Shown here one piece after another: positions 33,099 to 42,657 of a stretch of 44,883 bases of DNA. Source of the stretch: a phage; NCBI GenBank assembly GCA_030395855.1, contig GCA_030395855.1_4325.1; one strand, 5' to 3'. Below the pieces are notes generated by a model. The model saw only the letters and a program-made list of their open reading frames with translations. It was not told the origin of the DNA and did no database searches. Within the stretch, counting starts at the first letter, position 1. Each line of letters opens with the position of its first letter. A program made the translations under genes and the position numbers.

Positions 33099-33272
33099 AT
33101 GAATAAATTATTCTGCGTTAGCAACAAATCTAAATCACTGCCTTTCACTGTAAACAATACTTACAGCGCTGAGTGCCAGGGTGATGGATACTACAAGATT
33201 TATGGCGACGATATGACGCACATCTTAGCGCCGATTGATGGTTCGTTAGTTGAATTTATTGTCGCTGACTAG
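33099..33272 (+). CDS. hypothetical protein (57 aa)
   Basis: RBS GAGGA before ATG 33099. Confidence 0.4.
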   Translation: MNKLFCVSNKSKSLPFTVNNTYSAECQGDGYYKIYGDDMTHILAPIDGSLVEFIVAD

Positions 33273-33298: not shown

Positions 33299-33324
33299 GG
33301 GGAGCCTTTTGGCTCCCTTTTTTT
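33299..33324 (+). terminator. intrinsic terminator
   Basis: Hairpin ggggagcc-tttt-ggctccc followed by T7. Confidence 0.7.
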
Positions 33325-33403
33325 ATGCTTCTTTTCCGAGCGGTGATAATGTATCATTCTTTTACTAACTTAAACATTGACAAATACATAAGTGGAGGAT
33401 CAC

Positions 33404-33619
33404 ATGAGGGAAGTAATCAACGCTGCTACTGCGTCAACTGGCGGTGCTGCGTTTACTGGAGCGGCAACTGGTCAAATGACTATAGCAATAATCAGCCTTA
33501 TCGCTCTAATCATTTTTGGAGCATGGGGTGCTTACTGGAAGTATAAGGATAGCCAGGCGATTCGCAGAGCTCTTGAATCGGGAGACTTGAAAACAGCAAT
33601 CAATATAAGGAGTAAATAA
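33404..33619 (+). CDS. holin, pinholin-like (two hydrophobic segments)
   Basis: 71 aa; weakly hydrophobic Gly/Ala-rich segment followed by a strongly hydrophobic helix and charged C-terminus; immediately upstream of endolysin. Confidence 0.55.
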   Translation: MREVINAATASTGGAAFTGAATGQMTIAIISLIALIIFGAWGAYWKYKDSQAIRRALESGDLKTAINIRSK

Positions 33620-34105
33620 ATGAAGCAGAAGCTGCTAATTAGCGCGGCTACGGCTTCGGCAATATACATCGCAGCGCCGATTATTGAGCTCGTTGAGGGT
33701 GTGGAGAACAAACCTTACATTGACATTGCCGGAATACCTACAGTCTGCGCGGGTATCACTGGTCCTGACGTAGTTTGGGGTAAGACTTACAGCAACAGGG
33801 AGTGCCGGAACCTGCTTGAGAATCGCATCCAGATTCATGGAAAGCATGTTCAGGATGCAGTTACCTACCCAATTACACCGCAGACAAGGGCAGCGTTAAT
33901 CAGCTTTAGCTATAACGTTGGTGGTCATGCCATGAAGAATTCAACGGCCGTTAAGTTAATCAACCAGGGTAAAGTGGAGCAAGGTTGTAAGGCTTTGGGT
34001 CTTTGGAATAAAGCTACCGTTAATGGTAAGAAGGTTGTGGTTAAGGGTTTGGTAAACCGCAGGAATGAGGAGATTAAGTTATGCTTAAGAGGATTGCAGC
34101 GTTAG
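33620..34105 (+). CDS. endolysin, lysozyme-like with N-terminal signal-anchor (SAR-type)
   Basis: N-terminal hydrophobic Ala/Ile-rich segment followed by E...D...T catalytic-like region typical of phage lysozymes. Confidence 0.65.
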   Translation: MKQKLLISAATASAIYIAAPIIELVEGVENKPYIDIAGIPTVCAGITGPDVVWGKTYSNRECRNLLENRIQIHGKHVQDAVTYPITPQTRAALISFSYNVGGHAMKNSTAVKLINQGKVEQGCKALGLWNKATVNGKKVVVKGLVNRRNEEIKLCLRGLQR

Positions 34106-34470
34106 TAATGTGCGTAGCTTTATCTGGATGCTCAGCGACATCCGCACTGACCGGATTAATTGGCAGTAAGCCAGAGATTAGCGCCCAGGCTGGTTCCGAG
34201 AACAATAAGGTTGGTGTTGGGTTAACGAACAAGGTTGACTCCAGTAGCTCCAGTGAAGCCACGGTTAAAGATTCTAAGGTTGGGTCACTGGATAGCTCTA
34301 GCGGGAAAAAGACTGCTGACAACTCGATTAAGGCCTCCACAATCACTGCCGAAAAGATTGAAATTACCAATAACGAATCATCAGCGCTTCCGTGGGTTGG
34401 AACAGGAGCTATGGGTCTGCTGGTTTTAATTCTCATGGCATTAATCTTAAGGCGTAAAAAAGCCTCCTAA
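34081..34470 (+). CDS. unimolecular spanin (N-terminal lipoprotein signal + C-terminal transmembrane helix)
   Basis: Lipobox LSGC at residues 14-17 and C-terminal hydrophobic helix followed by RRKKAS; last gene of the lysis cassette. Confidence 0.6.
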   Translation: MLKRIAALVMCVALSGCSATSALTGLIGSKPEISAQAGSENNKVGVGLTNKVDSSSSSEATVKDSKVGSLDSSSGKKTADNSIKASTITAEKIEITNNESSALPWVGTGAMGLLVLILMALILRRKKAS

Positions 34471-34486
34471 TGGAGGCTATATTTTT
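34455..34486. terminator. bidirectional intrinsic terminator
   Basis: Hairpin agcctcc-taa-tggaggct flanked by A5 and a T-run; between convergent operons. Confidence 0.7.
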
Positions 34487-42579: not shown

Positions 42580-42657
42580 GATCTGCTAGCTCAACAGGAA
42601 AGAAGCAACGACCTTCTAAGTCGTAGGTTACTGGTTCGAATCCAGTGCGGATCGCCA
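42580..42657 (+). tRNA. tRNA-Arg (anticodon UCU), with encoded CCA
   Basis: Folded by eye: acceptor stem GATCTGC/GCGGATC (one G-U), anticodon stem ACGAC/GTCGT, loop CTTCTAA (anticodon TCT at 42615-42617), T arm ACTGG-TTCGAAT-CCAGT, discriminator G, CCA. Confidence 0.8.

What the first reader, a model, noticed from the sequence alone, without database searches (positions are those of the whole stretch)
33404..34470. Lysis cassette: pinholin-like holin, signal-anchor endolysin and unimolecular spanin
Three consecutive genes. The holin has a Gly/Ala-rich weakly hydrophobic first helix and a strongly hydrophobic second helix. The lysozyme-like endolysin has an N-terminal hydrophobic Ala/Ile-rich segment, consistent with a signal-anchor-release enzyme. 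The last protein has both a lipoprotein signal (LSGC) and a C-terminal transmembrane helix, the topology of a unimolecular spanin rather than a two-component spanin pair.
Basis: partly seen in the sequence, partly recalled or inferred. Interest (0 to 1): 0.5.

Follow-up and report, generated by a model that had tools for sequence, protein, structure and literature searches.

The report
T1-type phage lysis cassette
This is the ordinary, already catalogued three-gene lysis cassette of a T1/Rtp-like coliphage: a small holin, a membrane-tethered lysozyme and a single-protein spanin. The three proteins breach the inner membrane, the cell wall and the outer membrane in turn.

Summary
Window 33404-34470 (+) holds three tightly packed genes. 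They are a 71-aa holin (33404-33619), a 161-aa GH24 lysozyme with an uncharged Ala/Ile/Ser/Thr-rich N-terminal segment (33620-34105), and a 129-aa protein with an LSGC lipobox and a C-terminal transmembrane helix (34081-34470).

The window is a near-complete Rtp-like (Drexlerviridae, Braunvirinae) coliphage genome. The three proteins are homologues of phage T1 gp13, gp12 and gp11, at 58%, 42% and 37% identity. Against phage Rtp they are 97%, 87% and 97% identical.

T1 gp11 is the prototype unimolecular spanin, and Rtp is listed in its family in the published spanin database. That paper states that these cassettes encode a pinholin and a SAR endolysin. A 2026 preprint reports Sec-dependent lysis for an endolysin whose first 20 residues differ from this one at a single position.

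The defining sequence features are present here and conserved in diverged relatives.

Two points remain inferred rather than shown. The holin's first segment has not been shown to be a releasable transmembrane domain, and the holin has no detectable homology to the S21 pinholin. The endolysin's N-terminus has not been shown to stay uncleaved.

The parts
33404..33619 (+). Holin gene (71 aa), a T1 gp13 / Rtp rtp63 homologue. Residues 4-23 (nt 33413-33472) form a Gly/Ala/Ser/Thr-rich weakly hydrophobic segment. Residues 25-45 (nt 33476-33538) form a strongly hydrophobic TMD. Residues 46-71 (nt 33539-33616) form a charged, conserved C-terminal tail.
   Evidence: ORF and SD site. PHROG 2877 'holin' at 2.2e-37. 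58% identity to T1 gp13. 100% identical to the holin of 45 phage records. Hydropathy. Conservation across relatives.
33620..34105 (+). SAR-type (class II, R21-like) GH24 endolysin gene (161 aa). The SAR-like segment is residues 5-22 (nt 33632-33685). The catalytic residues are E26 (33695-33697), D35 (33722-33724) and T41 (33740-33742).
   Evidence: Pfam PF00959 at 3.8e-35. Best PDB sequence hits are RrrD 4zpu and R21 3hde at about 1e-24. Triad regex and Cys positions. The triad is invariant in 7 diverged sequences. AF2 model has pLDDT 87 with helix 2-26. Foldseek gives TM 0.82 to full-length 4zpu/3hde against 0.61 to SAR-less 3hdf.
34081..34470 (+). Unimolecular spanin gene (129 aa), T1 gp11 family. 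The signal peptide plus LSGC lipobox covers residues 1-17 (lipobox nt 34120-34131, Cys17 at 34129-34131). The periplasmic domain is residues 18-104. The TMD is residues 105-123 (nt 34393-34449). An RRKK cytoplasmic tail follows.
   Evidence: PHROG 1804 'Rz-like spanin' at 8.7e-49. BLASTP to T1 gp11 at 2e-24. 97% identical to the Rtp spanin, and Rtp is listed in the T1 u-spanin family. Lipobox, TMD and Cys analysis. Alignment. AF2 helices at 2-14 and 104-128.
34461..34478 (.). Bidirectional intrinsic terminator. The stem overlaps the spanin stop codon, and the site closes the cassette against convergent minus-strand genes.
   Evidence: Terminator scan finds the same stem on both strands. GC skew changes sign here. 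Equivalent terminators are annotated in T1, AHP42 and SU57.
33299..33325 (+). Intrinsic terminator (8-bp stem with 6 GC pairs, then a T7 run) upstream of the holin. It marks the 5' boundary of the cassette transcription unit.
   Evidence: Terminator scan. The same sequence is present in OzMSK. A terminator is annotated at the equivalent place in AHP42.
33099..33272 (+). Adjacent 57-aa DUF7244 (SH3-like) gene, a T1 gp14 homologue. It has been proposed elsewhere as an auxiliary lysis-module component.
   Evidence: Pfam PF23896 at 2.2e-28. 40% identity to T1 gp14. The proposal is in PMC13164509.

Best explanation
This is the lysis cassette of an Rtp-like T1-family siphophage. It works by the pinholin / SAR-endolysin / u-spanin pathway.

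1. The endolysin is exported by the host Sec system. It is held inactive on the periplasmic face of the inner membrane by its uncleaved, weakly hydrophobic N-terminal signal-anchor (residues 5-22).
2. The 71-aa holin accumulates in the inner membrane. At a programmed time it triggers and forms lesions that collapse the proton-motive force.
3. Depolarisation lets the SAR segment leave the bilayer. The segment refolds against the lysozyme body as in R21, positioning the E26/D35/T41 triad, and the enzyme degrades the murein.
4. The spanin is tethered to the outer membrane by lipidated Cys17 and to the inner membrane by TMD 105-123. Once the peptidoglycan mesh is gone it is free to move, and it destroys the outer membrane, probably by fusing the inner and outer membranes.

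What is shown here: gene structure, homology, motifs, hydropathy, and conservation of each feature.

What is shown elsewhere for relatives: gp11 complements lambda Rz/Rz1, and 57_3Lys lysis is azide-sensitive.

What is inferred: the small-hole nature of the holin, release of its first segment, non-cleavage of the SAR segment, and the fusion mechanism.
For: Identity of the phage and cassette:
- The region is 90-92% identical in nucleotides to Rtp-like coliphages whose records annotate holin, (SAR) endolysin and u-spanin.
- The proteins are homologous to T1 gp13, gp12 and gp11, in the same order and followed by a terminator.
- PHROG and Pfam assignments agree.

Sequence features:
- The hydropathy of holin segment 1 (KD 0.83, 79% GAST) is like EssD/S21 TMD1 (KD 0.68). 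Segment 2 is strongly hydrophobic.
- The endolysin N-terminus (KD 1.98, 50% GAST, no Cys) is comparable to the R21/RrrD SAR domain. The same kind of segment is present in six diverged relatives.
- E26, D35 and T41 are invariant.
- The only small-residue pair at the end of the hydrophobic stretch (A18-A19) is followed by Pro20. Pro at +1 is known to block signal peptidase I (sequence, plus established knowledge).

Structure:
- The AF2 model matches full-length R21/RrrD over all 165 columns (TM 0.82). It matches the SAR-less R21 less well (TM 0.61).

Spanin:
- An [LVIAFM][ASTVILGW][GAS]C lipobox pattern was found in 112 of 120 close homologues. Seven of the other eight carry a variant box ending in Cys (LYGC, LFGC, LPGC, SSGC, LSWC), and one lacks the site.
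- All 120 have a C-terminal TMD, and none has a periplasmic Cys.
- The same features are present in seven diverged members.

Literature:
- RTP is listed in the T1 gp11 family, and these cassettes are described as pinholin plus SAR endolysin (PMC6139136).
- T1 and TLS are described the same way (PMC11447400; PMC13164509).
- 57_3Lys has the N-terminus MKQKLLISAATAAAIYIAAP and the same E26/D35/T41. It lyses E. coli on induction, and azide blocks this lysis (bioRxiv 10.64898/2026.09.09.750462).
Against: - The holin has no detectable homology to the S21/EssD pinholin (hhalign probability 1.2%) and no Pfam family.
- Its two hydrophobic segments are joined only by T-G-Q, without a charged loop.
- The T1 and AHP42 records call the holin a single-TMD protein.
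- No experiment on hole size or topology of a T1-type holin was found.
- SignalP 6 and DeepTMHMM are reported to call the near-identical endolysin N-terminus a 20-aa signal peptide. Cleavage has not been excluded experimentally, and azide is not a specific probe.
- The AF2 spanin model is low-confidence (pLDDT 54). It shows no beta strands in the periplasmic domain, so the beta-rich collapse model gains no support here.
Confidence: 0.85

Rival explanations
1. The holin is not a two-TMD pinholin. It is a single-TMD holin with N-out/C-in topology. Its Gly/Ala-rich N-terminus never inserts in the membrane and sits in the periplasm from the start. The protein may form large or small holes.
For: - Segment 4-22 has a position-independent Hessa sum of +6.7 kcal/mol and KD 0.83, below usual TMD thresholds.
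- Only T-G-Q separates it from the second segment.
- The T1 record notes a 'single transmembrane domain', and the AHP42 record notes '1 transmembrane domains' by Phobius.
- There is no homology to S21.
Against: - EssD/S21 TMD1, which does insert and then leaves the membrane, scores just as weakly (KD 0.68, +7.2 kcal/mol).
- The N-terminal segment is well conserved (54% mean pairwise identity; A8, G14 and G19 invariant), which argues that it is functional.
- The holin is obligately paired with a SAR-type endolysin across the family (PMC6139136).
- Other annotators predict two TMDs.
Confidence: 0.25
2. The endolysin N-terminus is a conventional Sec signal peptide that is cleaved. This would give a secreted soluble lysozyme whose activity is restrained some other way, as in the fOg44 Lys44 type.
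For: - The N-terminus has a basic n-region (MKQK) followed by a hydrophobic core.
- SignalP 6 and DeepTMHMM reportedly call a 20-aa signal in the near-identical 57_3Lys.
- Azide sensitivity shows Sec dependence only, not retention.
- An A12-S13-A14 motif exists.
Against: - A12-S13-A14 lies in the middle of the hydrophobic stretch.
- The end of the stretch is A18-A19-P20. Pro at +1 is incompatible with signal peptidase I (established knowledge).
- The N-terminal helix runs continuously into catalytic E26 in the model (helix 2-26, pLDDT 80-91 for residues 11-30).
- The closest solved relatives are full-length R21 and RrrD, in which the SAR segment is part of the active fold.
- The segment has the same G/A/S/T-rich, Cys-free character across diverged relatives.
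Confidence: 0.08
3. The third gene is an ordinary phage lipoprotein, for example a Cor/Llp-like superinfection-exclusion factor, and not a spanin.
For: It has a lipoprotein signal. Some records call it 'hypothetical', 'putative membrane protein' or 'lipoprotein'.
Against: - It is homologous to T1 gp11, which complements the lambda RzRz1 lysis defect (PMC6139136).
- The C-terminal TMD plus basic tail is conserved in 120 of 120 close homologues and in seven diverged ones.
- It is always the last gene of the lysis cassette in Drexlerviridae.
Confidence: 0.02

Closest known systems
Phage T1 lysis cassette: gp13 holin, gp12 endolysin, gp11 u-spanin (NC_005833)
   Same: The gene order, sizes (71/162/133 aa against 71/161/129 aa) and terminal terminator are the same. 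All three proteins are homologous, at 58%, 42% and 37% identity. The LSGC lipobox is identical, the catalytic spacing is the same, and the holin hydropathy pattern is the same.
   Different: The sequences are moderately diverged. Here the spanin start overlaps the endolysin gene by 25 nt, against a 1-nt overlap in T1. T1 gp11 has a Cys inside its TMD, and this protein does not.
Phage Rtp rtp63/rtp64/rtp65 and other Braunvirinae (DTL, CEB_EC3a, OzMSK, SU57)
   Same: The cassette is about 90-92% identical in nucleotides. Against Rtp the holin is 97%, the endolysin 87% and the spanin 97% identical. OzMSK and SU57 already annotate SAR endolysin and u-spanin. RTP is listed in the T1 u-spanin family.
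   Different: The differences are only allelic. The endolysin is the most diverged of the three: 87-91% identity to named phages, although a 100% identical 'lysozyme [Escherichia coli]' entry exists in nr.
Phage 21 / DLP12 pinholin-SAR system: S21 (EssD), R21 (RrrD), Rz/Rz1
   Same: The functional logic is the same. Both holins are 71 aa, with a weak first and a strong second hydrophobic segment and a charged C-tail. Both endolysins are GH24 with E-x8-D-x5-T and a Cys-free SAR domain. R21 and RrrD are the best sequence and fold matches.
   Different: The holin is not detectably homologous. It lacks the charged inter-TMD loop and the dual-start motif. Outer-membrane disruption is by a single u-spanin instead of the embedded Rz/Rz1 pair.
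57_3Lys, endolysin of Veterinaerplatzvirus vB-EcoS_57-3 (bioRxiv 10.64898/2026.09.09.750462)
   Same: The first 20 residues differ at one position (S13 here, A13 there). The E26/D35/T41 numbering is identical. It was classified as a class II SAR endolysin, with azide-sensitive lysis on induction.
   Different: It comes from a different phage genus.

Membership tests
T1 gp11-family unimolecular spanin | Sequence homology to T1 gp11 or to listed family members | tested here: met
   BLASTP to T1 gp11 gives 37% identity at E 2e-24. PHROG 1804 matches at 8.7e-49. The protein is 97% identical to the Rtp protein, and Rtp is a listed family member.
T1 gp11-family unimolecular spanin | N-terminal lipoprotein signal with a lipobox Cys and a non-Asp residue at +2 (outer-membrane sorting) | tested here: met
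   LSGC with Cys17 and Ser at +2, identical to the T1 lipobox. The lipobox pattern was found in 112 of 120 close homologues, and seven more have a variant box ending in Cys. Actual lipidation was not tested.
T1 gp11-family unimolecular spanin | C-terminal transmembrane domain in the same polypeptide | tested here: met
   Residues 105-123 have KD 2.36 and are followed by RRKK. AF2 gives a helix at 104-128 with the highest pLDDT in the protein. Present in 120 of 120 homologues.
T1 gp11-family unimolecular spanin | No periplasmic cysteine, unlike two-component spanins | tested here: met
   The only Cys residues are C11 (in the signal peptide) and C17 (lipidated). None of the 112 close homologues with a recognised lipobox has a periplasmic Cys.
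T1 gp11-family unimolecular spanin | Periplasmic domain made of a short helix followed by beta strands | tested here: inconclusive
   AF2 gives a short helix at 20-26 but no confident structure for residues 27-103 (pLDDT below 50, shallow alignment).
T1 gp11-family unimolecular spanin | Complements a lambda Rz/Rz1 lysis defect | not testable with these tools
   Shown for T1 gp11 only (PMC6139136).
SAR endolysin, class II (R21 type), GH24 | T4-lysozyme-like GH24 fold with the E-x8-D/C-x5-T triad | tested here: met
   PF00959 at 3.8e-35. E26, D35 and T41 found by regex and invariant in the alignment. AF2 pLDDT 87, and Foldseek TM 0.82 to 4zpu and 3hde.
SAR endolysin, class II (R21 type), GH24 | N-terminal weakly hydrophobic TMD rich in Gly/Ala/Ser/Thr, preceded by basic residues | tested here: met
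   MKQK followed by 18 uncharged residues, 50% G/A/S/T, KD 1.98. RrrD has 24 residues, 62% and KD 1.39. The same pattern is seen in five other diverged Drexlerviridae endolysins.
SAR endolysin, class II (R21 type), GH24 | No Cys in the SAR domain, which separates it from class I P1 Lyz | tested here: met
   The Cys residues are at 43, 62, 123 and 155 only.
SAR endolysin, class II (R21 type), GH24 | Sec-dependent export, no signal-peptidase cleavage, and release on membrane depolarisation | not testable with these tools
   Azide-sensitive lysis is reported for the near-identical 57_3Lys. Cleavage and release have not been tested anywhere I could find. Pro20 after A18-A19 argues against cleavage, but this is inference.
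Pinholin (S21 68 prototype) | Sequence homology to S21/EssD | tested here: not met
   hhalign of the T1-type holin alignment against EssD gives probability 1.2%. No Pfam holin family matches. The protein is therefore not a member of the S21 family. The claim is functional analogy only.
Pinholin (S21 68 prototype) | Two hydrophobic segments: TMD1 weakly hydrophobic (SAR-like), TMD2 strongly hydrophobic, and a charged cytoplasmic C-tail | tested here: met
   The two segments have KD 0.83 and 2.28 here, against 0.68 and 1.72 in EssD. The C-tail carries 10 charged residues.
Pinholin (S21 68 prototype) | Genetic pairing with a SAR endolysin | tested here: met
   The genes are adjacent here and in T1, PHB07, AAS23, Klebsiella phage 13 and AHP42.
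Pinholin (S21 68 prototype) | TMD1 leaves the membrane, and TMD2 forms nanometre-scale holes that depolarise the membrane but do not pass proteins | not testable with these tools
   No experimental report for a T1-type holin was found.
T1 gp13-type holin (PHROG 2877) | Full-length sequence match | tested here: met
   PHROG 2877 at 2.2e-37 over residues 1-71 of 71. 58% identity to T1 gp13. 823 phage records carry a match.

The most novel reading that the evidence does not exclude
The T1-type holin could be a mechanistically distinct holin class rather than an S21-like pinholin. Three observations leave this open. It is unrelated in sequence to S21. Its two hydrophobic segments are joined by only three residues. 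Its cytoplasmic C-terminal tail, not its membrane segments, is the best conserved part (62% mean pairwise identity against 43% for TMD2). A related open possibility is that the neighbouring SH3-like DUF7244 protein is a fourth lysis factor. Either reading would apply to the whole Drexlerviridae family, not specially to this window.
Probability: 0.15. Interest if true: 0.35.

Novelty: already known. Interest (0 to 1): 0.08.

Why it matters
The finding matters little beyond correct annotation. The window can safely be annotated as a T1/Rtp-type lysis module.

The residual scientific value lies in family-wide open questions rather than in this locus:
- How u-spanins disrupt the outer membrane is still mechanistically unresolved.
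- The hole size and topology of T1-type holins have not been tested.

Tried and rejected
- **Holin homology to S21/EssD.** Profile comparison gave probability 1.2%, so I rejected membership of the S21 family.
- **TatA_B_E Pfam hit on the holin.** The hit was weak (E 0.02, below the cut-off) and suggested a TatA-like TMD-FG-amphipathic helix. Only 1 of 6 family members hits it, so I rejected it as chance.
- **AF2 model of the spanin.** The aim was to test for a beta-rich periplasmic domain. pLDDT was 54 with no strands, so the result is uninformative. Only close homologues (at least 78% identical) could be supplied as the alignment.
- **Sigma-70 promoter scan.** The count was no higher than in shuffles, and there was no +-strand hit upstream of the holin. 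The GATAAT at 33345-33350 has only a poor -35 partner, so the cassette promoter stays unidentified.
- **The longer 89-aa holin start annotated in OzMSK.** A 1-nt length difference puts that upstream ATG out of frame in the window. The extension is therefore not conserved, and ATG 33404 is the start.
- **The search for related loci in IMG/VR.** It returned only 7 close relatives. I took diverged relatives from GenBank phage records instead.
- **Kongari et al. 2018 J Virol (PMC6206483).** The paper is not held in the library.

Full report
**Observation**

- The holin runs from ATG 33404 to TAA 33619 (71 aa) and is preceded by GGAGGA at 33394-33399.
- The endolysin starts at 33620, immediately after the holin stop, and ends at 34105 (161 aa). 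It is preceded by AAGGAG.
- The third gene starts at 34081, 25 nt inside the endolysin gene, and ends at 34470 (129 aa). It is preceded by GAGGAG.
- A strong intrinsic terminator (33299-33318 plus a T7 run) lies upstream of the cassette.
- A bidirectional terminator (34461-34478) overlaps the last stop codon.
- GC skew changes sign at that point, and the genes beyond it are on the minus strand.

**What the window is**

The cassette region is 90-92% identical in nucleotides to Rtp-like coliphages such as DTL, CEB_EC3a, Rtp and IME253. The first 25 kb of the window is about 88-89% identical over 90-95% of its length to Veterinaerplatzvirus and Rtp-like phages. The window is therefore a near-complete Braunvirinae (Drexlerviridae, T1-like) genome. 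Several of these records already annotate 'holin | SAR endolysin | u-spanin' (OzMSK; SU57).

**Homology**

- The three proteins match PHROG 2877 (holin, 2e-37), PHROG 7 (endolysin, 2e-47) and PHROG 1804 (Rz-like spanin, 9e-49).
- The endolysin matches Pfam Phage_lysozyme at 3.8e-35.
- Against phage T1 they align full-length with gp13 (58%), gp12 (42%) and gp11 (37%, E 2e-24). These lie in the same order at the equivalent genome position.
- Against Rtp the identities are 97%, 87% and 97%.
- The holin is 100% identical to that of 45 GenBank phage records.
- The endolysin is 100% identical to an nr entry, 'lysozyme [Escherichia coli]'.
- The best spanin hits are 98% identical.

**Features checked here**

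*Holin*
- Residues 4-22 have KD 0.83 and are 79% Gly/Ala/Ser/Thr. This is essentially the same as TMD1 of EssD, the DLP12 copy of the S21 pinholin (KD 0.68).
- Residues 25-43 have KD 2.28.
- The tail is highly charged.

*Endolysin*
- MKQK is followed by 18 uncharged residues (KD 1.98, 50% G/A/S/T, no Cys), then E26-x8-D35-x5-T41.
- The triad and four Cys residues are invariant across six Drexlerviridae genera and RrrD. Each relative has an equivalent basic n-region followed by a 15-24-residue G/A/S/T-rich, Cys-free segment.
- The closest solved relatives by sequence are RrrD (4zpu) and the SAR endolysin R21 (3hde).
- An AF2 model (pLDDT 87, helix 2-26 running into the catalytic Glu) matches full-length RrrD and R21 over 165 columns at TM 0.82. 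It matches the SAR-less R21 (3hdf) at only 0.61.

*Spanin*
- It has LSGC with Cys17 and Ser at +2, a TMD at 105-123 (KD 2.36), an RRKK tail and no periplasmic Cys.
- Among 120 close homologues, 112 match my lipobox pattern. Seven of the other eight have a variant box ending in Cys, and one lacks the site.
- All 120 have the C-terminal TMD, and none has a periplasmic Cys.
- Seven diverged members, including one from a Drulisvirus podophage, keep the same plan.

**Literature**

- Kongari et al. 2018 (PMC6139136) define gp11 as the prototype u-spanin, which complements lambda RzRz1. They list RTP among the 28 members of the T1 family. They state that all but two members sit in cassettes encoding a pinholin and a SAR endolysin.
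- The TLS paper (PMC11447400) and the KanT1 paper (PMC13164509) describe the T1-type cassette in the same terms.
- A 2026 preprint on 57_3Lys reports an N-terminus differing from the window's at one residue and the same E26/D35/T41. It reports lysis on induction that is suppressed by azide, and it classifies the enzyme as a class II SAR endolysin.

**Mechanism**

1. The endolysin is exported by Sec and tethered to the inner membrane in an inactive state.
2. The holin triggers and depolarises the membrane.
3. The SAR segment leaves the bilayer and refolds onto the enzyme, as in R21, activating it.
4. The murein is degraded.
5. The u-spanin is anchored by lipidated Cys17 in the outer membrane and by its TMD in the inner membrane. 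Once freed from the peptidoglycan mesh it disrupts the outer membrane, probably by fusing the two membranes.

The gene and feature anatomy is shown here. The spanin function and Sec dependence are shown for relatives. The rest is inferred.

**Weak points**

- The holin is only analogous to S21. hhalign gives probability 1.2%, and there is no Pfam family.
- Its two segments are joined by T-G-Q alone.
- Some annotators call the holin a single-TMD protein.
- No experiment on a T1-type holin was found.
- Non-cleavage of the endolysin N-terminus is not demonstrated. SignalP 6 reportedly calls it a signal peptide. However, the only plausible site at the end of the hydrophobic stretch is followed by Pro20.
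- The AF2 spanin model was uninformative (pLDDT 54).

**Verdict**

Interest is low.

Noticed in passing
window 33099-33272 (+): A 57-aa DUF7244 (SH3-like) gene sits directly upstream of the holin (PF23896 at 2.2e-28; 40% identical to T1 gp14). A 2026 paper proposes this protein as an auxiliary lysis-module component in Drexlerviridae. It is 84% identical to the Rogunavirus AHP42 copy but only 74-80% identical to the copies in the Rtp-like loci compared, which suggests mosaicism.
   Followed up: partly
window 33299-33403 (+): A strong intrinsic terminator separates the DUF7244 gene from the holin, and no convincing sigma-70 promoter lies between the terminator and the holin start. How and when the lysis cassette is transcribed (read-through or a non-consensus late promoter) is unclear. 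The terminator is conserved in OzMSK and is annotated in AHP42.
   Followed up: partly
window 33539-33616 (+), holin residues 46-71: The charged cytoplasmic C-terminal tail is the best conserved part of the holin across Drexlerviridae. Mean pairwise identity is 62%, against 43% for the main TMD. D49, S50, A52, A56, L57, G60, D61, A65 and I68 are invariant. This hints at a specific regulatory or interaction role.
   Followed up: partly
window 33620-34105 (+): Within the cassette the endolysin is noticeably more diverged from named phages (87-91%) than the flanking holin (95-100%) and spanin (92-98%). An identical protein exists only as an nr entry, 'lysozyme [Escherichia coli]'. This looks like a small recombination mosaic.
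   Followed up: no
L003 2550-2819 (OzMSK) vs window 33349-33403: The OzMSK record annotates an 89-aa holin from an upstream ATG. In the window a 1-nt length difference puts that ATG out of frame, so the extension is probably an annotation artefact.
   Followed up: yes
L013 1501-2732 (Klebsiella podophage KpV48, Drulisvirus): A T1-family u-spanin homologue (50% identity) occurs in an Autographiviridae podophage, in a different gene order (spanin-holin-endolysin). This shows exchange of the spanin gene between phage families.
   Followed up: no
window 34074-34436 (-): A 120-aa antisense ORF lies entirely inside the spanin gene. There is no evidence that it is a gene, and it is probably a shadow ORF.
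   Followed up: no
window 42580-42657 (+): A single tRNA-Arg(TCT) gene was found by ARAGORN and by Rfam. A single Arg tRNA is also reported for the related phage vB-EcoS_57-3.
   Followed up: no
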